Source: Gammaproteobacteria bacterium | Lineage (GTDB): Bacteria > Pseudomonadota > Gammaproteobacteria > Magnimaribacterales > AG-339-G14 | Length of the DNA: 64,000 bases | Direction: 5' to 3' | Assembly: GCA_004213955.1 (NCBI GenBank) | Contig: SGZL01000001.1 | Coordinates: forward strand, 43,041-107,040 | Shown: positions 14,478 through 57,746 of the stretch, piece by piece | Layout: every line of letters starts with the position of its first letter | Numbering within the stretch: the first letter of the stretch is position 1 | The notes under the pieces: model-generated | What the model was told of the DNA's origin: nothing | The model's database searches: none | The model's input: the letters and a program-made list of their open reading frames with translations, nothing else | Made by a program: the position numbers and the translations under genes

Positions 14478-15632
14478 ATGCCAAAAATAATATCTTTTTA
14501 TATATTAAACCAAGTGTTAAAAACGTTACTTATAACTTTTATTATTTTATTTGGAATATTATTCTTTAATCAGTCAATTGATTTTTTAGAAAAAGCTTCA
14601 AATGGAGAGTTGTATCCAAGCCTTGTAAGTTTAGTTTTAATTTTCTCTGTACCTTCTATATTAGAAGTTGTGATACCAGCTTCAGTATTTATTGGTACTT
14701 TGATCTCAATATACAATTTAAAAAAAACCAATGAAATAACTTTTGCAAGTCAAGCCGGTTTAAGTAATTTAAAATTAATTTATCTATCATTAATACCCTC
14801 AGCGGTTATTTCTATTTTTTTAATTTTTAACTCTTTTTTTATTTCTCCTTCTTCAAATGAACGTTTAAGCTTTCTTTCAAATTCTCAATCTTTTGCAGAT
14901 AATTTTAAATTGATGGGAGAAGGAAAGGTAAATCAAATCAAAGAACTAAATGGAGTTTTTTATGCTGAAGGGGCATCAGATTTAGGATTTCAAAATATTT
15001 TTGCAAAAATTGAATCTGACGATCTCAATTACATTTTGAATTCTGATGAAGTTACCGCCAGTTCTTCGGATGACTCTTACAATCAAATTATATTTGAGCA
15101 AGGAGAATTGGTTATTCCCTTAGAAAAGAACGATTTATTTTTAAACTTTCAAAGTTTAATTTTTTTATTTCCTAAAAATCAAGTTATTGTAAACGAAGAT
15201 ATAAAAACCAAAAATTGGTATGAATTAATAAATAAAGTTGATTCAAAATTTTATCTCTCTGAGATATTTGAAAGAATTTCCTTGAGTTTAATGTTGATAG
15301 TTTCTGTTTTAATAGCTGTTCCTTTAAGCTTAAAAATGCATGAAAGCGGAAGATTTTTATTAATTTTTTCTGGCCTAGTTATTTTTTTGTCATATTATGG
15401 ATTAGTAATTGGACAAAAAGTTTTTGTTGAAGAGGGCATTTTAAGCCCCATTCAGATTTTTTTAATCATTCATGGAGTTTACTTAAGCCTGGGACTCTCG
15501 CTTTTTGGTTTGAATAATTACGTATTAGATATAAATTCGATTGTGGCTAGAAAATATTCGAAAAAGTGGTTTATTCAACTTTCTTTTTTCTTTTTTTTAG
15601 TTATTTTATTTTTTAATTTTATATTTTTATAA
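14478..15632 (+). CDS. lptF: LPS export ABC permease LptF, divergent
   Basis: Divergent from pepA; 3 TM + periplasmic domain + TMs; NEI...QAGLS motif. Confidence 0.75.
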   Translation: MPKIISFYILNQVLKTLLITFIILFGILFFNQSIDFLEKASNGELYPSLVSLVLIFSVPSILEVVIPASVFIGTLISIYNLKKTNEITFASQAGLSNLKLIYLSLIPSAVISIFLIFNSFFISPSSNERLSFLSNSQSFADNFKLMGEGKVNQIKELNGVFYAEGASDLGFQNIFAKIESDDLNYILNSDEVTASSSDDSYNQIIFEQGELVIPLEKNDLFLNFQSLIFLFPKNQVIVNEDIKTKNWYELINKVDSKFYLSEIFERISLSLMLIVSVLIAVPLSLKMHESGRFLLIFSGLVIFLSYYGLVIGQKVFVEEGILSPIQIFLIIHGVYLSLGLSLFGLNNYVLDINSIVARKYSKKWFIQLSFFFFLVILFFNFIFL

Positions 15633-15641
15633 AACTTTGAT

Positions 15642-16664
15642 ATGAATGTAATTTTTGGAGATACGATTGATAAGTTTTTTTTCAAAGAATCTTTGAAAAT
15701 TCTTTTTTTTGTATCTTTTTTAATATTTTCATTAGATCTTCTTTTAAATTTAGTAAAAGAATTAGAGGATTTAAGTATAAATTATTCATTTTTAGAAATT
15801 CTTCAATATATTTTTTATATTTCTCTGAGTCGACTTTGTGAGATCTTACCATTATGTGCCGTTATCTCTGCAATTTTGACTTTTGGCTTTTTGAGTGATT
15901 CTGGCGAATTAATTGCTGCTCAAATACTAGGTAAATCTATGTTGGCTAATATTTTAAACATTCTGAAACCAATAATTATTTTCTTAATATTTACTTTGTT
16001 AAGTTTTGAATTAATTACTCCAAAATTAGAAATTTTAGCTAAAAATATTAAATTTAAAGACCAAGAGTTAGCTATTAAATCAGACTGGTTGCAAAAAAAT
16101 AATGTTCTAGCTAATTATTCTTTTCTAGATAACTCTGGATCCGATATTAAACTTTATTATCTCAATGAAGAAAAAAGGTTACAGTCTATAGTTGAAGCTA
16201 AATCATTCGAAATACAAGAAGATAAATGGCAGTTAAATGAAGCTTTCGACTCAATAAAAAAAGAAAATTATTCTGTATTTTATTGGGAGGAGGGTCCTAA
16301 TGTAGGAATTAATGAAGATCTAGGAATTAAAGAACTTCCCTTATCTCAAGTTTATAAAATTCTTACTCAAACAGGACCAGAAAGAGAGAAAAAAAAGATA
16401 TCTTACGAGTTTTGGAAAAAATTATTAGAGCCATTTTCGGCGGTCTCCATAATTATTTTGTCCATCGCGTTATCCATTCTATTTTTTGAAAAGAATAAAA
16501 ACCTAGAAAGGCTTTTGTTTGGAGCATTGATGGCATTTGGTTTCAATTTAATTTTAAAAATTCTAGGAAATATAGCAATAATTAATAACATATCTCCTGG
16601 GCTAGCAATATTACTTCCTTCTTTGATAGTGGGCTTCCTTGGCTTAAGGTTATTAAAAGCTTAA
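15642..16664 (+). CDS. lptG: LPS export ABC permease LptG, divergent
   Basis: Follows lptF; SGELIA motif, FWKKLLEP; same topology. Confidence 0.75.
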   Translation: MNVIFGDTIDKFFFKESLKILFFVSFLIFSLDLLLNLVKELEDLSINYSFLEILQYIFYISLSRLCEILPLCAVISAILTFGFLSDSGELIAAQILGKSMLANILNILKPIIIFLIFTLLSFELITPKLEILAKNIKFKDQELAIKSDWLQKNNVLANYSFLDNSGSDIKLYYLNEEKRLQSIVEAKSFEIQEDKWQLNEAFDSIKKENYSVFYWEEGPNVGINEDLGIKELPLSQVYKILTQTGPEREKKKISYEFWKKLLEPFSAVSIIILSIALSILFFEKNKNLERLLFGALMAFGFNLILKILGNIAIINNISPGLAILLPSLIVGFLGLRLLKA

Positions 16665-42195: not shown

Positions 42196-43002
42196 TAATT
42201 CTATATCATTTATAATTTTTGAATTATTCAATGTAGTAGTTACAAAACAATTCATATTAGATGGAGCATTATCCATTATTTTTGAAGCTTCATCAAAATT
42301 ATTAAACAATGAGTAAATTGTTGAGCCTGTTCCAGATAGATAAGCGTCATTGTATTCTTCTATCCATTCAAAAGATTTATTAATTTCATTAAAATTTTTT
42401 CTAGCCCAATTTTCAAAAGAATTAAAAAAAACTTTTTTATGTATACCACTAGCACAAAAGTTTTTATTTTTTTCAAAAGCTTCTTGGGTTGAAATTTTAG
42501 AATCAGGCAAGATAATCAATATTGGTTTTTCCTCAAGAGTAATATTTTCAAAAATTTCTCCTCTTCCAGTTGCTTGGCAAGATTTGCCATGTACAAATAC
42601 AGGTACATCTGATCCTAAGGACAAAGCAATATTAAAAAGGTTTTTTTTATTGAGCCTCAAATTGTAAATTTTATTCAAAGCCAATAATATTGAAGCAGCA
42701 TTAGAGCTAGCCCCTCCTAATCCCGACTTAGTAGGTATCTTCTTATCAATACTTATTTTAAGTTTTTCTTTAAAACCTATTTCATTTTTTAAAATTTGTA
42801 ATAATTTATAAATAATATTTTCTTTTTGTTGGATACCTTTGCAAATTATTTCGCTTTCCATTACGTTGTTTTCTATAGAAATCTGATCTCCCCAATCAAG
42901 AAATTGAAAAATTGTTTCTATATTGTGAAAGTTATCTTTTCTTTTATTTAATACTTTCAGACCAAGATTTATTTTTGCTGGAGAGTTAATTTTAAAATTC
43001 AT
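42175..43002 (-). CDS. ispE: 4-diphosphocytidyl-2-C-methyl-D-erythritol kinase
   Basis: SPAKINLGL, KKIPTKSGLGGASS, LGSDVP, LSGTGS; last 7 codons lie inside tRNA-Gln. Confidence 0.92.
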   Translation of the reverse strand: MNFKINSPAKINLGLKVLNKRKDNFHNIETIFQFLDWGDQISIENNVMESEIICKGIQQKENIIYKLLQILKNEIGFKEKLKISIDKKIPTKSGLGGASSNAASILLALNKIYNLRLNKKNLFNIALSLGSDVPVFVHGKSCQATGRGEIFENITLEEKPILIILPDSKISTQEAFEKNKNFCASGIHKKVFFNSFENWARKNFNEINKSFEWIEEYNDAYLSGTGSTIYSLFNNFDEASKIMDNAPSNMNCFVTTTLNNSKIINDIELWGVAKR

Positions 43003-43490
43003 CTAAAAATTAATTTTATTGTAAATAGGTTTTTGTTATTCGTAATTTCGATCAAAGTTGAATTAGTCTTAGGACTTCGTTTAATAGATAAATTTCCTAT
43101 ATTTAGTCTTTGACAAACTATTTCATTACAGGGTTCAAAAATCCAGAAAAATATTTTATAAAAATTAACATCAATTAAATTAGAGTCACTGTAATTTAAA
43201 AAAAGTTTAGACTCTTTTTTACTTAAAAATGCTTTCTCTTTAGAAAATTTTACTTCGTATTCTTTTTTAGAATTAATAGTCTTTATTTTTAAAGAAAAAA
43301 CATTATCTTGCTTAAGAATTTTAACAAAACCATTAAGATATACTTCACTGGAAGCGAATAGGAATTTACCATCTGCAAGAACAGTATATTTCTCATCAAA
43401 ATTCATCTTGCTTGAGCAAGAGTTAAGTATGAAAAGAAAAAAAATAAAAAATATAGATACAATACTGTTCGTTCCATTTGAAATTTTCAT
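42999..43490 (-). CDS. lolB: lipoprotein, probably highly divergent LolB
   Basis: Signal peptide with lipobox-like LNSC; coupled upstream of ispE (the lolB position); little recognisable motif. Confidence 0.5.
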   Translation of the reverse strand: MKISNGTNSIVSIFFIFFLFILNSCSSKMNFDEKYTVLADGKFLFASSEVYLNGFVKILKQDNVFSLKIKTINSKKEYEVKFSKEKAFLSKKESKLFLNYSDSNLIDVNFYKIFFWIFEPCNEIVCQRLNIGNLSIKRSPKTNSTLIEITNNKNLFTIKLIFR

Positions 43491-53443: not shown

Positions 53444-53946
53444 CAGAATTTTTAGATCCAAAAAGACCATCTTTCCCAGTTTATATAACCATTGGATTAA
53501 CAATAATCTTTTTTTCTTTTTTAGAAATCTTTCTTAGGACGTTATTTCCAACATTTTTGAACATACCTCTTACGCTCATGTGTCTTATATATTGGAATAT
53601 GGCACTTCCAAAAAGCGTTGGGTTAACATGGGCTATATTCTGTGGTTTCATTTTAGATTTATCGCAAAATCTAGTTTTGGGATCTAATGTAATGATTTTT
53701 TTAGCTTCCTCTTATTTAATACAAAGATATTTCCATAGGTTAAGGGCTTTATATAGAATACAACAATCGTTGATAGTTGCGAGTATGGTCTTTACTTATC
53801 AGTTGATATTTATATTTTCTTTTTTAAACTTTTCAAATCAGATTCTTATAGAGGTCTTACTATTTACTTTTATTTCAGCTTTGATTTGGCCAATAATATT
53901 TGGTTTACTAAGATTTATAAGAATAAAGTTTACCTACATTAGTTAA
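53440..53946 (+). CDS. mreD: rod shape-determining protein MreD
   Basis: IYWNMALP, GFILDL..VLG; polytopic; after mreC. Confidence 0.85.
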   Translation: MTEFLDPKRPSFPVYITIGLTIIFFSFLEIFLRTLFPTFLNIPLTLMCLIYWNMALPKSVGLTWAIFCGFILDLSQNLVLGSNVMIFLASSYLIQRYFHRLRALYRIQQSLIVASMVFTYQLIFIFSFLNFSNQILIEVLLFTFISALIWPIIFGLLRFIRIKFTYIS

Positions 53947-55277
53947 CTGTAGAAAATCGTTGCTAATCCTAAAAAAGATAAGAATCCTACAACGTCTGTA
54001 ATAGTAGTCACAATTACACTTCCTGCAATAGCCGGATCCAGTTTAAAAAACTTTAATATCAATGGAATTCCCATTCCGCTGATTACCGCCATGAACAAAT
54101 TTATCACCATTGATAATAAAATAATCAAGGCTATCGTAATTTCATTGAACCAAAAGTAGGAAATAGAGCCAAGTACCAAAGCCCAAAAAAAACCATTTAC
54201 CAATCCTACAGTGACCTCTCTAGATAGAAGATATAAATAATTAGAAGACATTATTTGGCCCAAAGCTAATCCTCTAACTGTTATGGTAAGTGTTTGGGTT
54301 GCAGCAACACCTCCCATGCTAGCAATTATTGGCATTAATACTGCTAAGAAGATAACTTCTTCAATAGTTTCTTTAAAAATATTTATAACTGATGAAGCGA
54401 TTATTGCAGTGAATAAATTTATGCCTAACCAAAAACCTCTGCTTTTAATAGCCGAAGATGTTCTTTCAAAAGTATCTCCACTTAAACCTGAGAATTGTTT
54501 TAAAGATTCATCAGCTTCAGATTTTATTTCATCGATTACATCGTCAAAAGTAATTCTGCCTATCAAGTTGTTTTCATCATCAATAACAGGAGCAGATATT
54601 AAATCTTCTTTTTCGAATACTTTAATAACTTCATTTGAATTTAAACTTGCATTAAGAGGTTTTTTTTCAACCATTATATTTTTAATAATCTCGCCAGGGG
54701 GGTTAGTGATGAGGTTTGAAATAGGCAAAACTCCTCTAAATTTGTTATTTCTACTTACTACAAATAAATTATCTGTTGACAACGGGATATTATTTTTTAT
54801 TCTGAGATATCGCATTACCAGTTCGACAGAATGATAAGGTCGAACAACAATGACATCGGTATTCATTAAACCACCGGCTGAATCCTCAGGATATTTCAAA
54901 ACTTTTTCTAAAATGTCCTTATTCTGGAAAGACATCTTTTCAAGAACTTCTTTCATTATTTGCTCTGGAAGATCTTGCAATATGTCTGCTATTTCATCGG
55001 TTTCTAGGTCTTTTGTGACCAGTGCAACTTCATCTGGATCCATATAGGATAAAATAGTTTCTCTAACATCATCAGATAAATTTTTTAAAATTTCTCCTTC
55101 ATTTTTTTCTTCGATTAGTTGCCAAATAAAAGCTCTCTTCTTTGGCGGGCTTGACTCAATGATGAGCGCTATTTCGTATGCTGGCAGAGAATTAAATAAT
55201 TCTTTAGATTCTTTATATTTACCCTCATAAAGAATCTTTTGAATATCATGATTTCCTGAATTAAATTCATCGCTCAT
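53943..55277 (-). CDS. mgtE: magnesium transporter MgtE
   Basis: YPEDSAGGLM, CBS pair, MGGVAATQT, DPA..TTITDVVG. Confidence 0.93.
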   Translation of the reverse strand: MSDEFNSGNHDIQKILYEGKYKESKELFNSLPAYEIALIIESSPPKKRAFIWQLIEEKNEGEILKNLSDDVRETILSYMDPDEVALVTKDLETDEIADILQDLPEQIMKEVLEKMSFQNKDILEKVLKYPEDSAGGLMNTDVIVVRPYHSVELVMRYLRIKNNIPLSTDNLFVVSRNNKFRGVLPISNLITNPPGEIIKNIMVEKKPLNASLNSNEVIKVFEKEDLISAPVIDDENNLIGRITFDDVIDEIKSEADESLKQFSGLSGDTFERTSSAIKSRGFWLGINLFTAIIASSVINIFKETIEEVIFLAVLMPIIASMGGVAATQTLTITVRGLALGQIMSSNYLYLLSREVTVGLVNGFFWALVLGSISYFWFNEITIALIILLSMVINLFMAVISGMGIPLILKFFKLDPAIAGSVIVTTITDVVGFLSFLGLATIFYS

Positions 55278-55504
55278 AGTAAAGTTTTTCTATCATGAGA
55301 CGAAGGAATCTTTAATTTAGCTCTATACTTCGAAATTGTTTTTCTTGAAATGAATACTTTATGTTTTTTTTCAAATAAAAGTTTTAATTTTTCGTCAGTT
55401 AGTGGAGATGATTTATTTTCTTCTGTTATAGATTGTTGCAAGAATTCTAAAAGAAGAGTTTTTTTTGTTTTTTTTAAATTTAGTTTAATTTTGCTAATTT
55501 TCAA
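55274..55504 (-). CDS. rpoN: stand-alone sigma-54 C-terminal RpoN-box (HTH) domain, 76 aa
   Basis: EENKSSPLTDEKL...ISRKTISKYRAKLKIPSSHDRK matches the sigma-54 C-terminus (EN..KPLSD.KL...VARRTVAKYRE.L.IP.S..RK). It sits immediately after lptB, has an AGGAG-N6-TTG start, and an ATGA overlap with mgtE. Confidence 0.8.
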   Translation of the reverse strand: MKISKIKLNLKKTKKTLLLEFLQQSITEENKSSPLTDEKLKLLFEKKHKVFISRKTISKYRAKLKIPSSHDRKTLL

Positions 55505-56210
55505 ACGAATCTCCTAAATAAACCTTTCTTACAGTCTCATCATTTAGAATTTTTTTTGAAGATCCTTCAGCAATAATGTTTCCCGAGCTAATTACAAATA
55601 TCTTTTTACAGATGTCTGTAGTGGCTTTTACATTATGATCACTAATTAAAATACCTAAACCTTTTTCGGTTAACTTTTGAATTAATTCTTTTAGATCATC
55701 TATAGCTAAAGGATCTATTCCTGCAAAAGGTTCATCTAACATAATAAATGTAGGGTTTAAGGCAACAGACCTAGCGATCTCAACTCTTCGTCTTTGACCG
55801 CCTGAAAGTTCTCTTCCCTTTTGCTTAGCGAGTGATGAGATTTTAAACTCTTCCATAATCTCATTCATTCTTCTTTTTATTTCAAGTTTTGAAGAAAATT
55901 TTGTTTCTAAAGAGGATTTTAAATTATCTTCAACTGACAGATTTCTAAATATTGACGGCTCTTGAGGCAAATAAACCAAGCCTGCATCTGCCCTAGAGCT
56001 CAAAGAAAGGTTGGTAATCTCTGTATTGTTAAGCAAAACTAAGCCGTTACTTGGTTTAGTTAACCCGGCTAAAATATAAAAAAGAGTAGTTTTTCCTGCT
56101 CCATTTGGCCCAAGTAAACCCGTAATTTCGTCTAGTTTTATACTGATTGATATTTCTTTTAAAATAGAGTTTCTACCGTAAGATTTACTTATTTTTATTG
56201 TTTCAATCAT
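55494..56210 (-). CDS. lptB: LPS export ABC ATPase LptB
   Basis: GPNGAGKTT, YLPQEPSIFR, LSGGQRRRVEIAR, LDEPFAGIDP, VYLG. Confidence 0.96.
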   Translation of the reverse strand: MIETIKISKSYGRNSILKEISISIKLDEITGLLGPNGAGKTTLFYILAGLTKPSNGLVLLNNTEITNLSLSSRADAGLVYLPQEPSIFRNLSVEDNLKSSLETKFSSKLEIKRRMNEIMEEFKISSLAKQKGRELSGGQRRRVEIARSVALNPTFIMLDEPFAGIDPLAIDDLKELIQKLTEKGLGILISDHNVKATTDICKKIFVISSGNIIAEGSSKKILNDETVRKVYLGDSFEN

Positions 56211-56760
56211 TTACAGCTTCGTATCTTACATTTGTACTTCTAAGGATTTTTCTTTCAGATAAATCAACTAAGATTGAATCTGCTGAGTAAATTTGCCCAT
56301 CGAAGGAGAGTTTCAAGTTTTCTGACACCTCTGCAGTATTTTCATTTAGATTTAATTCTAACTTTCCAATTACTCCATTGAATTCAGTATTATCAAAAGT
56401 ACCTTCAAAATTTACGAGCTCATTGAATTTGAAAACATTAGACTTGTAAAAAAAATCAGCAGTTTTTGAAATGCCTAATATTTTTAAATTTTTTTTATTA
56501 TCAAAACTTATTTCTGGATTAAATAAACGCATGAAATCTGAATCTGCCAAACTATTTAGCATCTGACTTTTAATAGAAAAATCAATAGTTCTGTCAGAAA
56601 AAGATACCTTTAAACTGACTTCATCTGCTTGGAAAATATTTTTCACAATGGGATCTGTTAATTCATTTTTTTCAGAATCTATAAAATTTGAGGTTAAAAA
56701 TAGCGATATTCCAATCAGGCTAATTAATAGAATCGAATAAATAATTATATTTCTTTGCAT
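56203..56760 (-). CDS. LptC-like LPS transport protein, divergent
   Basis: Single N-terminal TM then beta-rich periplasmic region; only gene between kdsD and lptB. Confidence 0.6.
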   Translation of the reverse strand: MQRNIIIYSILLISLIGISLFLTSNFIDSEKNELTDPIVKNIFQADEVSLKVSFSDRTIDFSIKSQMLNSLADSDFMRLFNPEISFDNKKNLKILGISKTADFFYKSNVFKFNELVNFEGTFDNTEFNGVIGKLELNLNENTAEVSENLKLSFDGQIYSADSILVDLSERKILRSTNVRYEAVND

Positions 56761-57746
56761 CAAATGATTTTTGCTTTTAATAAATCATGCATTCTTAAAA
56801 GACCTATAACCCTTCCATTTGTGTTTTTTACAAGCAGAGAAAAAACTTTATATCTCTCCATTTGAGAAATAGCTTTTGAGAGAAATTCGTTCTCATTGAT
56901 AAATTTAAAATCTCTTGTCATCACTTTTGCTAAAGTTATTTTGCTTATATCAATTTTTTTCTCTAAACATCTTCTTAAATCTCCATCAGTAAAAATACCT
57001 GTGATTTTATTGTTCTTATTAATCATGGTTAATCCAAGTCCTGCCGAAGATATTGGATAAATTGCATCGGAAATTTTTGTATTTTCAGCTAATGATGGAA
57101 TATCTTTTTTTTGAACCATGAGATCTTTTGCCTTAAAGAACTTTTTCCCTAAACTCCCACCTGGATGGTTTTCAGCAAAATCCTTTGGAGAAAAATTCTT
57201 TGCTTCAAGTAATGAGATTGCTATAGCATCTCCCAATAACAACATTGAAGTAGAGCTCGTAGTCGGCGCTAAATCCATGGGGCAAGCTTCTTCATCAATT
57301 TTTAAATCAATAGATATTTTTGCATTGTTGGCTAAAGTTGATGTCTTATTTCCTGTTATGGATAGAATTTTTTTTACTTTTTTCGCACAAGTTGGCAGAA
57401 TTTTTAGTATTTCCTCTGTTTCTCCTGAGAACGAGAAAATAATGAGAAGATCTTTTTTTGTTAGAACTCCCAAGTCTCCATGACTTGCTTCTGCAGCACT
57501 AATGTAAATTGCAGGAGTACCGGTAGAAGAAAGCGTGGAGCAAACTTTTTCAGCTATATTTCCGGATTTACCTATGCCCATAAGAAATAAATTTCCTTTA
57601 TTGTCTAATATTTCCTGACAGAACTTATTGTAATTTTTAGAATCTAAATCAAAAGGAATTTTTGAAAGAGAATTTATTTCTTTTTTAAAAGTATTTTTTG
57701 CCGATTTAAAGAAATTAAAATTTAAATTTTGCTTATCCATTTTCAT
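56760..57746 (-). CDS. kdsD: arabinose-5-phosphate isomerase (KdsD/GutQ)
   Basis: GIGKSGNIA, EASHGDLG, EACPMDLAPTTSS, HPGGSLG, CBS pair. Confidence 0.93.
   Translation of the reverse strand: MKMDKQNLNFNFFKSAKNTFKKEINSLSKIPFDLDSKNYNKFCQEILDNKGNLFLMGIGKSGNIAEKVCSTLSSTGTPAIYISAAEASHGDLGVLTKKDLLIIFSFSGETEEILKILPTCAKKVKKILSITGNKTSTLANNAKISIDLKIDEEACPMDLAPTTSSTSMLLLGDAIAISLLEAKNFSPKDFAENHPGGSLGKKFFKAKDLMVQKKDIPSLAENTKISDAIYPISSAGLGLTMINKNNKITGIFTDGDLRRCLEKKIDISKITLAKVMTRDFKFINENEFLSKAISQMERYKVFSLLVKNTNGRVIGLLRMHDLLKAKII

What the first reader, a model, noticed from the sequence alone, without database searches (positions are those of the whole stretch)
55274..55504. Mini sigma-54: only the RpoN-box DNA-binding domain remains, as an intact coupled ORF
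Seen: a 76-aa ORF fills the whole space between lptB and mgtE. It aligns by eye to the last ~65 residues of sigma-54 and ends at the same point (…IPSSHDRKTLL vs E. coli …IPPSNQRKQLV). It has an AGGAG-N6-TTG start, an 11-nt overlap with lptB and an ATGA overlap with mgtE. There is no room for Region I (activator contact), the core-binding domain or the -12 helix. Known: this C-terminal HTH recognises the -24 element and can bind DNA as an isolated domain. The RpoN box is altered here (ARRTVAKYR to SRKTISKYR). Inference: it cannot act as a sigma factor. It may be an exapted small DNA-binding repressor or architectural protein with new specificity, a translational coupler for mgtE, or a decaying remnant. 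A clean cut at the domain boundary with motif retention favours selection.
Basis: partly seen in the sequence, partly recalled or inferred. Interest (0 to 1): 0.85.

Follow-up and report, generated by a model that had tools for sequence, protein, structure and literature searches.

The report
Stand-alone sigma-54 RpoN-domain protein, SAR86
In SAR86, one of the most abundant marine bacterial groups, the sigma-54 gene is reduced to a 76-residue protein holding only its promoter-recognition domain; this mini-protein is conserved under purifying selection across the group, so it is probably a small DNA-binding regulator and not a sigma factor or a dead remnant.

Summary
Window 55274-55504 (-) is a 76-aa ORF with an AGGAG-N6-TTG start, an 11-nt overlap with lptB and an ATGA overlap with mgtE. 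It sits where rpoN sits in E. coli. It matches only the last 60 positions of Pfam Sigma54_DBD (E 8e-13) and E. coli sigma-54 residues 418-476 of 477. AlphaFold models of two family branches give the three-helix RpoN fold.

The organism is SAR86. About 140 sequence clusters of 73-81 aa fall into two branches about 43% identical, with the same lptB-mini-mgtE synteny and tight gene junctions. Pairwise dN/dS is 0.13-0.27 (Fisher p about 1e-6), in a genome that is about 98% coding. It is not a pseudogene.

Every universally conserved RpoN-domain residue is kept. The one diagnostic change is invariant: Arg to Lys at the position of E. coli R456, a residue where substitutions re-target -24 recognition. 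A lysine-rich N-terminal tail has also been added.

Region I, the core-binding domain and the -12 HTH are absent, so it cannot be a sigma factor. It is most likely an exapted stand-alone DNA-binding protein, a natural counterpart of the engineered RpoN* roadblock.

Two things are untested: its DNA target, and whether a full rpoN or activators exist elsewhere in SAR86 genomes.

The parts
55274..55504 (-). Mini-RpoN gene. It encodes a 76-aa, 9.0-kDa protein with pI 10.3 and net charge about +13, consisting of the stand-alone RpoN domain of sigma-54.
   Evidence: ORF. Pfam PF04552 E 8e-13, covering profile positions 101-159 of 160. Alignment to E. coli sigma-54 residues 418-476. AlphaFold pLDDT 77 with helices 14-28, 37-48, 54-63 and 69-75. 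Top 13 Foldseek hits are sigma-54 chains aligned over only 54-61 columns, TMq 0.58-0.65. dN/dS 0.13-0.27. Charge and pI.
55502..55515 (-). Translation start: AGGAG (55511-55515), a 6-nt spacer, then TTG (55502-55504). It lies inside the 3' end of lptB.
   Evidence: Sequence. The TTG start and the GGAG are conserved in the seven loci examined. The GGAG lies in the lptB 'LGD/E' codons. The overlap with lptB is 11 nt, or 4 nt in L004, L005 and L010.
55460..55504 (-). Lysine-rich N-terminal tail (residues 1-15, read as LKISKIKLNLKKTKK with the TTG as Leu). It is predicted disordered. K12, K14 and K15 are invariant in the family and absent from full-length sigma-54.
   Evidence: Translation. pLDDT 56 for residues 1-10. 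Invariant and mini-specific columns.
55322..55348 (-). RpoN box and recognition helix, SRKTISKYR (residues 53-61). K55 (55340-55342) replaces the Arg at the position of E. coli R456.
   Evidence: Translation. The box is invariant in 62 of 62 matches in the window's branch, and SRKTI[SA]KYR is kept in the second branch. R455 and R456 are proposed base contacts, and R456 substitutions re-target the -24 element (PMC12096077).
55274..55277 (-). ATGA junction where the mini stop (TGA) overlaps the mgtE start (ATG).
   Evidence: The junction ranges from -14 to +3 nt across the compared loci.
55494..56210 (-). lptB (ABC ATPase of the LPS transporter), the upstream gene that is translationally coupled to the mini gene.
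   Evidence: Pfam ABC_tran E 2e-34 plus BCA_ABC_TP_C. It has the same position relative to rpoN as in E. coli.
53943..55277 (-). mgtE (Mg2+ transporter), the downstream coupled gene.
   Evidence: Pfam MgtE, MgtE_N and CBS. No Rfam riboswitch lies upstream.
56203..57746 (-). kdsD (56760-57746) and a 186-aa membrane-anchored ORF at the lptC position (56203-56763). These are the first genes of the same tightly packed gene string.
   Evidence: ORFs. SIS and CBS domains on the orthologue of the first gene. No terminator-like site between kdsD and mgtE. The 186-aa ORF has no Pfam hit at E<=1.

Best explanation
Origin (shown): This is a relic of rpoN reduced in place to its last domain and kept as a working protein. 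In the SAR86 lineage the ~400 codons for Region I, Region II, the core-binding domain and the ELH-HTH (-12) module are missing. So are the hpf-ptsN-rapZ-npr genes that follow rpoN in E. coli. What remains is a 73-81-aa ORF beginning in the linker about 15 residues before helix 1 of the RpoN domain.

Expression (inferred from anatomy): The ORF uses a conserved TTG start that overlaps the lptB stop, and its own stop overlaps or abuts the mgtE start. It is therefore most likely made by translational coupling as part of the kdsD-lptC-lptB-mini-mgtE gene string.

Function (inferred): The protein cannot bind core RNA polymerase as a sigma factor or respond to enhancer-binding activators. It keeps the three-helix HTH fold and every conserved residue of the -24 recognition helix. 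It has also gained a conserved lysine-rich N-terminal tail. It therefore most likely binds DNA on its own. The probable site is related to the GG-containing -24 element, with affinity or specificity tuned by the invariant Arg-to-Lys change at the R456 position. The most likely role is a small repressor (roadblock) or an architectural protein.

Target genes are unknown.
For: Domain identity.

Fold: Two independent AlphaFold models (pLDDT 77 and 80) have sigma-54 RpoN domains, including the DNA-bound 2O8K, as their best PDB matches.

Positional orthology with rpoN: The gene lies directly 3' of lptB with kdsD and mla genes upstream, as in E. coli.

Conservation: 65 clusters of 63-99% identity and about 70 more in a second branch, with ~43% identity between branches. 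All are SAR86 or unnamed marine metagenome sequences. Synteny is identical in L001-L008 and L010, the last being a 1.23-Mb contig.

Selection: dN/dS is 0.13-0.27. For window vs L001, Nd is 10.5 of 181 sites and Sd is 16.5 of 47 sites (Fisher p 9e-7). This is similar to lptC at 0.14-0.19. The genome has a median intergenic gap of 0 nt and is ~98% coding, so 231 useless bases would be an outlier.

Residue pattern: E431, P436, D439, R455, T457, K460, Y461, R462, L465, R473 and K474 (E. coli numbering) are all kept at >=97% across the pooled family set. K at the R456 position and the K12/K14/K15 patch are invariant and specific to the family.

Precedent: The isolated 60-aa A. aeolicus RpoN domain binds the -24 element with Kd ~109 nM. 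Expressed alone in P. aeruginosa it lowers transcription of ~700 genes, also in a delta-rpoN strain (PMC5626770; PMC6491466). R456 substitutions re-target -24 recognition (PMC12096077).
Against: There is no experimental or expression evidence for the protein.

No candidate operator was found. Canonical -24/-12 sites and TGGCAC are not enriched in the 64-kb window. No conserved GG-type motif appears in the few intergenic regions compared across loci.

The second branch has lost the otherwise universal Pro436.

The effect of R456K on binding is unknown.

Rare frameshifted variants exist on single short contigs (P0064, P0065, P0071).

Whether SAR86 genomes hold a second, full-length rpoN could not be checked.
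Confidence: 0.6

Rival explanations
1. It is a general basic nucleic-acid-binding protein. The mini-protein would have lost sequence-specific recognition and would act as a non-specific nucleoid-associated, RNA-binding or ribosome-associated protein. Its charge would matter more than base readout.
For: Net charge is about +13 and pI is 10.3, twice the charge of the E. coli RpoN domain. A disordered lysine tail has been added. No enriched or conserved candidate site was found. The base-contacting Arg at the R456 position is replaced by Lys.
Against: The recognition helix is invariant across about 140 clusters, while the rest of the protein diverges to about 43% identity. That pattern is expected for specific readout and not for charge alone. 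R455, T457, K460, Y461 and R462 are all kept.
Confidence: 0.2
2. It is only a translational coupler or leader ORF. The reading frame would be kept only to pass ribosomes from lptB to mgtE, or to tune mgtE expression, and the peptide itself would have no function.
For: Start and stop overlap the neighbouring genes in all lineages examined, with junctions of 4-11 nt and -14 to +3 nt. The start is a weak TTG codon. There is no terminator or riboswitch in the string.
Against: A coupler needs no particular amino-acid sequence. Here dN/dS is 0.13-0.27, and the invariant residues are exactly the fold and DNA-contact residues of the RpoN domain. A 4-nt overlap between lptB and mgtE would do the same job at no cost in a genome that is ~98% coding.
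Confidence: 0.07
3. It is one half of a split sigma-54. The N-terminal part (Region I, core-binding domain, -12 HTH) would be encoded elsewhere in SAR86 genomes, and the two polypeptides together would still give sigma-54-type transcription.
For: Nothing direct. In full-length sigma-54 the RpoN domain is joined to the rest by a linker.
Against: No other sigma-54 segment is present in the 64-kb window. No enhancer-binding-protein motifs or PF00158 hits appear in the window or the fetched loci. There is no enrichment of -24/-12 promoters. No paper links SAR86 with sigma-54. These genomes are only 1.05-1.66 Mb on average per family (PMC11582366). The invariant R456K change is unlike any working sigma-54 among the 66 examined.
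Confidence: 0.05
4. It is a decaying remnant (pseudogene) of rpoN that has not yet been deleted.
For: It is a fragment of a larger ancestral gene. A few frameshifted alleles are seen on single short contigs.
Against: Length is kept at 73-81 aa across two deeply diverged branches. Non-synonymous changes are strongly depleted (Fisher p 1e-6 to 1e-9). The start codon and junctions are conserved. The genome is extremely compact.
Confidence: 0.03

Closest known systems
C-terminal RpoN domain of sigma-54 (E. coli residues ~415-477; PDB 2MT3, 2AHQ, 2O8K/2O9L; C-terminal third of Pfam PF04552)
   Same: It is homologous and collinear from helix 1 to the C-terminus. It has the same three-helix HTH fold, the same conserved residues including the RpoN-box recognition helix, and the same genomic position after lptB.
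   Different: Here the domain is the whole protein. There is no Region I, core-binding domain or ELH-HTH, so it cannot join RNA polymerase. It has an invariant Lys at the R456 position and an added lysine-rich N-terminal tail.
RpoN* 'molecular roadblock' (engineered last 60 aa of A. aeolicus RpoN; Lloyd et al. 2017, PMC5626770; PMC6491466)
   Same: Both are a stand-alone RpoN domain of about the same size. RpoN* shows that such a protein binds -24-type sites and represses transcription in vivo without RNA polymerase contact, also in a delta-rpoN strain.
   Different: RpoN* is synthetic, carries the canonical RR box and acts in a host that has sigma-54 promoters. The SAR86 protein is natural and ancient, carries RK, and lives in a genome with no sign of such promoters in the 64 kb examined.
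Engineered sigma-54 R456 variants with new -24 specificity (R456H/Y/L; PMC12096077)
   Same: The change is at the same residue of the recognition helix.
   Different: Those variants are full-length sigma factors. R456K was not among the variants reported as losing the wild-type promoter and is not mentioned in the paper's text. Its effect is therefore unknown.
Tandem RpoN-domain repeat proteins found here (P0066, P0067, P0068, P0072, P0077 and others)
   Same: They are another case of the RpoN subdomain (Pfam profile positions ~101-160) used outside a sigma factor.
   Different: They carry 3-9 Pfam-scored copies per protein (5-9 stretches in the profile search), most have signal-peptide-like N-termini, and they come from unknown organisms. 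In several repeats read by eye the two Arg positions of the box are replaced. They are not related to SAR86 by context.

Membership tests
Sigma-54 (RpoN) sigma factors | Region I, the activator-interacting domain (Pfam PF00309) | tested here: not met
   No Pfam hit at E<=1. phmmer of full-length E. coli RpoN against the six-frame window matches only the C-terminal 60 residues. lptB overlaps the start codon, so there is no room for it.
Sigma-54 (RpoN) sigma factors | Core RNA polymerase-binding domain (Pfam PF04963) | tested here: not met
   No hit.
Sigma-54 (RpoN) sigma factors | ELH-HTH module that reads the -12 element (PF04552 profile positions ~1-100) | tested here: not met
   The Pfam match starts at profile position 101 of 160. 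No 'HESTISR'-type motif occurs in any frame of the window or the loci.
Sigma-54 (RpoN) sigma factors | C-terminal RpoN domain with the RpoN box (ARRTVAKYR-type) | tested here: met
   The box is SRKTISKYR, with K in place of the second Arg. This K is not seen in any of 66 full-length sigma-54 proteins.
Sigma-54 (RpoN) sigma factors | Partner enhancer-binding AAA+ activators (PF00158) and -24/-12 promoters in the genome | tested here: inconclusive
   None were found in the 64-kb window or about 100 kb of related loci. Whole SAR86 genomes could not be searched.
Pfam PF04552 Sigma54_DBD (domain family) | Score above the curated gathering threshold | tested here: met
   48.9 bits against a cut-off of 22.8, but only as a partial match covering the last 37% of the profile.
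Functional protein-coding gene (as opposed to pseudogene) | Intact frame of constant length in diverged relatives, with dN/dS well below 1 | tested here: met
   Length of 73-81 aa in about 140 clusters. dN/dS 0.13-0.27 with Fisher p 1e-6 to 1e-9.
Sequence-specific DNA-binding transcription factor | Demonstrated binding to a defined operator, with an effect on transcription | not testable with these tools
   Only indirect support is available: a conserved recognition helix and the RpoN* precedent.

The most novel reading that the evidence does not exclude
SAR86 has lost sigma-54-dependent transcription altogether. It has turned the factor's -24 recognition domain into an independent, sequence-specific transcription factor. 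Its specificity was re-tuned by the R456K change and its affinity raised by a new lysine tail. It controls a conserved set of genes in one of the ocean's most abundant bacteria. To my knowledge, and in the papers searched here, no natural case of a sigma factor's promoter-recognition domain surviving as a stand-alone regulator has been described. It would be a natural counterpart of the synthetic RpoN* roadblock.
Probability: 0.35. Interest if true: 0.8.

Novelty: new variant of a known kind. Interest (0 to 1): 0.62.

Why it matters
Gene loss versus domain salvage: Sigma-54 is usually either present as a complete system (factor, AAA+ activators, -24/-12 promoters) or absent. Here a streamlined, globally abundant marine lineage has kept exactly one domain of it for a long evolutionary time. 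This shows that genome reduction can salvage a domain and not only delete a gene.

A testable natural experiment: The isolated RpoN domain is known to bind DNA and to repress transcription when expressed artificially. SAR86 may show what such a protein does when evolution keeps it. The invariant R456K change sits at a residue that synthetic biologists mutate to re-target sigma-54.

Practical consequences: JGI auto-names several of these 53-116-aa Sigma54_DBD proteins, including 75- and 78-aa minis, 'RNA polymerase sigma-54 factor'. That label would wrongly credit SAR86 with sigma-54 regulation. A cultured SAR86 strain, HIMB1674, now exists (PMC11582366), which could help follow-up if it carries the gene; whether it does was not checked here.

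Tried and rejected
1. Fusion hypothesis. I asked whether the conserved N-terminal 'KKTKKTLLLEF' derives from the 'RxxTLLxV' start of the sigma-54 extra-long helix through an internal deletion. I rejected this. The segment aligns without gaps to helix 1 of the RpoN domain (T16-E29 to E. coli T418-E431), and by eye the alternative register matches poorly.

2. Intermediate forms.
- P0082 (148 aa, whole DBD, AT-rich) looked like a half-way stage. It sits on a single 822-bp contig from an unknown organism, with an eroded upstream frame. It is uninformative.
- More distant short hits (P0298-P0304) are fragments of ordinary sigma-54 with RR boxes.

3. Operator search, all without result.
- TGGCAC-N5-TTGC with up to 2 mismatches gives 34 matches against 24.6 +/- 5.3 expected; 6 of 100 shuffles reach 34.
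- TGGCAC gives 7 matches against 9 expected.
- An alignment of the kdsD upstream region shows a conserved block with no GG-type -24 element; by eye it resembles a sigma-70-type promoter.
- Shared 9-mers in the intergenic DNA of six loci are only A/T runs.

4. Literature. Nothing was found linking SAR86 with sigma-54 or rpoN. One badly chosen query returned only unrelated papers.

5. Published marker table. The CheckM marker table of Ramfelt et al. 2024 might have listed the sigma-54 Pfam domains as absent from SAR86. The stored copy is truncated and has no such rows.

6. tblastn. E. coli RpoN against the window missed even the mini ORF. phmmer on six-frame ORFs was used instead.

7. Whole-genome check. 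A search for a full-length rpoN or enhancer-binding proteins in SAR86 genomes was not possible.
Full report
**1. Observation**

- It lies at 55274..55504 on the minus strand, is 76 aa long and starts with TTG.
- The minus strand reads AGGAG-attcgt-TTG at the start.
- lptB ends at 55494, giving an 11-nt overlap with the mini ORF.
- The mini stop and the mgtE start form ATGA at 55274-55277.

The homology is restricted to the last domain of sigma-54.
- Pfam gives Sigma54_DBD at E 8e-13 and 48.9 bits (cut-off 22.8). Protein residues 14-73 match profile positions 101-159 of 160. There is no Sigma54_CBD or Sigma54_AID hit.
- NCBIfam rpoN models match only their last ~60 positions and score far below their cut-offs.
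- Against PDB sequences, residues 16-75 align to E. coli sigma-54 residues 418-476 of 477. They also align to the isolated RpoN-domain structures 2MT3, 2O8K and 2AHQ.
- phmmer of full-length E. coli RpoN against the six-frame translation of the whole window finds only this ORF (E 8e-9). E. coli Hpf, PtsN, RapZ, NPr, LptA, LptC and KdsC find nothing.

**2. Organism and conservation**

The window is about 32% G+C. Related loci come from SAR86 single-cell genomes and a SAR86 MAG. One of them, GCA_902540125.1, belongs to the family RedeBAC7D11 (PMC11582366 supplement).

The family has two branches.
- The first protein search found 65 clusters. Full-length members are 74-80 aa and 63-99% identical, and come from marine metagenomes including Tara.
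- A profile of the most divergent members found a second branch of about 70 clusters, 73-81 aa long. One member sits on a 1.23-Mb contig.
- The two branches are about 43% identical. They share an invariant SRKTI[SA]KYR and an IKK[ST]x[KR]TxIxEFL segment.

A profile search of 1.84 billion representative proteins found no other lineage with this protein. Other short hits have ordinary RR boxes and look like fragments of normal sigma-54.

Source annotations are 'hypothetical protein [SAR86 cluster bacterium]' at NCBI and an automatic 'RNA polymerase sigma-54 factor' at JGI. The exact window protein is seen on 29 contigs, and sister variants on up to 162.

**3. Context**

Synteny is the same in all loci fetched for context (L001-L008 and L010): mlaC / kdsD, a 186-aa membrane-anchored ORF, lptB, the mini gene, mgtE / mreDCB.

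E. coli has kdsD-kdsC-lptC-lptA-lptB-rpoN-hpf-ptsN-rapZ-npr, with mla genes upstream. The mini gene therefore occupies the position of rpoN. Relative to E. coli, SAR86 lacks the first ~400 codons of rpoN and the four genes that follow it.

Junctions are tight in all lineages examined.
- The TTG start is conserved.
- The overlap with lptB is 11 or 4 nt.
- The distance from the mini stop to the mgtE start ranges from -14 to +3 nt.

No terminator-like site lies between kdsD and mgtE, and no Rfam element lies near mgtE.

The genome is extremely compact. Across 64 genes the median intergenic gap is 0 nt and about 98% of the window is coding. The three gaps over 100 bp include those holding three of the window's four tRNA genes.

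**4. Selection**

Nei-Gojobori estimates on six orthologue sets are shown below. Synonymous sites are saturated in most comparisons, so these ratios are rough.

| Gene | Pairwise dN/dS |
|---|---|
| mini | 0.13-0.27 (pairs excluding the most divergent locus L005) |
| lptC-like ORF | 0.14-0.19 |
| lptB | 0.06-0.09 |
| mgtE | 0.03-0.05 |

- For window vs L001, the mini gene has 10.5 non-synonymous changes in 181 sites and 16.5 synonymous changes in 47 sites (Fisher p 9e-7).
- Excluding the overlapping codons does not change the result.
- Protein identity of the mini tracks that of its neighbours. Against L005 it is 47%, compared with 60% for lptB and 34% for the lptC-like ORF.
- Three frameshifted variants exist, each on a single short contig. 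They are likely homopolymer errors or rare alleles.

**5. Structure and residues**

AlphaFold models of both branches (pLDDT 77 and 80) give a disordered N-terminal tail followed by three helices and a short C-terminal turn. For both models the best PDB matches are sigma-54 RpoN domains, with rmsd 1.3-3.1 Å over 53-61 columns. For the second branch these include 2O8K, the domain bound to -24 DNA.

I compared 64 family members with 66 full-length sigma-54 proteins column by column.
- Every position that is universally conserved in sigma-54 is kept at >=97% across the pooled set of 64 family members: E431, P436, D439, R455, T457, K460, Y461, R462, L465, R473 and K474.
- Invariant residues specific to the family are K at the R456 position (0 of 66 in sigma-54), K12, K14, K15, L17, L18 and K41.
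- S at box positions 1 and 6 and I at position 5 are ordinary variants.
- The protein is 9.0 kDa, with pI 10.3 and charge about +13. The E. coli domain carries about +6.
- The second branch has lost P436.

**6. What is known about the domain**

- The last 60 residues of A. aeolicus RpoN bind the -24 element with Kd ~109 nM.
- Expressed alone as RpoN*, they reduce transcription of about 700 P. aeruginosa genes, also without native RpoN.
- A Tyr-to-Ala change in the box weakens this effect (PMC5626770; PMC6491466). That Tyr is invariant here as Y60.
- R455 and R456 are proposed to hydrogen-bond bases.
- R456H, R456Y and R456L switch -24 preference. Seven substitutions almost completely lose the wild-type promoter, and Lys is not among them (PMC12096077). 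R456K may therefore weaken or shift recognition, or leave it unchanged.

**7. Mechanism proposed**

*Shown:*
- The gene is a conserved, selected protein-coding gene.
- It derives from rpoN in place.
- It encodes only the RpoN domain, so it cannot be a sigma factor.

*Inferred:*
- It is translated by coupling with lptB and mgtE.
- It binds DNA as a stand-alone HTH protein helped by its basic tail.
- It acts as a small repressor (roadblock) or an architectural protein.

*Not known:*
- Its target sites are not known. I found no enriched -24/-12 or TGGCAC sites and no conserved candidate operator.
- Whether it is expressed is not known.
- Whether SAR86 has any other sigma-54 component is not known. 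None is present in the window or the fetched loci: all 64 window genes are housekeeping and there is no PF00158 hit. Whole genomes could not be searched.

**8. Rivals**

| Rival | Confidence | Main weakness |
|---|---|---|
| Non-specific basic nucleic-acid-binding protein | 0.2 | The recognition helix is invariant |
| Coupler ORF only | 0.07 | Does not explain residue-level conservation |
| Split sigma-54 | 0.05 | No supporting evidence |
| Pseudogene | 0.03 | Contradicted by selection and length conservation |

**9. Novelty and score**

The domain is well known, and its ability to act alone has been shown only with an engineered construct. A natural, ancient, lineage-wide stand-alone RpoN-domain protein is not mentioned in the papers searched. 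I file it as a new variant of a known kind, with interest 0.62. It is a clear and surprising case of domain salvage in a major marine lineage, and it is directly testable. Its function is still inferred.

Noticed in passing
Not in the window; proteins P0066, P0067, P0068, P0069, P0072, P0074 and P0077: Proteins of 202-603 aa are built from 2-9 tandem copies of the RpoN subdomain (Pfam Sigma54_DBD profile positions ~101-160, E down to 1e-85). Several have signal-peptide-like N-termini. In several repeats read by eye the two Arg positions of the box are replaced. This looks like a separate, apparently undescribed reuse of the domain in unknown, non-AT-rich organisms.
   Followed up: partly
window 56203-56763 (-): The 186-aa ORF at the lptC position has an N-terminal membrane anchor but no Pfam hit at E<=1, and no phmmer match to E. 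coli LptC or LptA. No kdsC or lptA homologue is detectable in the operon or anywhere in the window, although lptF and lptG are present at 14478-16664.
   Followed up: partly
window, whole 64 kb: Gene packing is extreme. The median intergenic gap is 0 nt, 34 of 63 junctions overlap or abut, and about 98% of the window is coding. No transcription regulator is present among the 64 genes apart from GreA, NusA and a cold-shock-domain protein.
   Followed up: yes
window 55274-55504 vs L001 6001-6231: Synonymous divergence of the mini gene between the two closest genomes (pS 0.35, dS 0.47) is lower than in all five neighbouring genes (dS 0.72-1.05). With only ~47 synonymous sites this is marginal. 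It could reflect Lys-codon bias or an extra nucleotide-level constraint, such as signals for mgtE.
   Followed up: no
L009 1-822 (ENA ERZ23495210 scaffold_287408): An 822-bp contig of about 28% G+C (estimated by eye) from an unknown organism carries a sigma-54 frame holding only the DBD region (P0082, 148 aa from a TTG). About 80 further in-frame codons lie upstream, then stops. It may be another truncated or eroding rpoN.
   Followed up: partly
P0064, P0065, P0071, P0291 and P0293: A few family members are frameshifted midway, and each sits on a single short contig. These are probably homopolymer assembly errors in A-rich runs, but rare null alleles cannot be excluded. P0070 (124 aa) looks like a chimeric join with an unrelated N-terminus.
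   Followed up: no
L010 3925-5243: On the 1.23-Mb long-read contig, hisD is called as two ORFs of 335 and 104 aa, while it is a single 440-aa gene in L006. This is likely a residual frameshift error in that assembly. It is a caution for using that contig as a reference.
   Followed up: no
window 42999-43490 (-): A 163-aa ORF between ispE-like (GHMP kinase) and prfA genes has no Pfam hit at E<=1e-5. From memory, this position suggests a diverged LolB.
   Followed up: no
P0159 (637 aa): This is the only protein outside the SAR86 family with Lys at the second Arg of the RpoN box (ARKTINKYR). It was not examined further.
   Followed up: no
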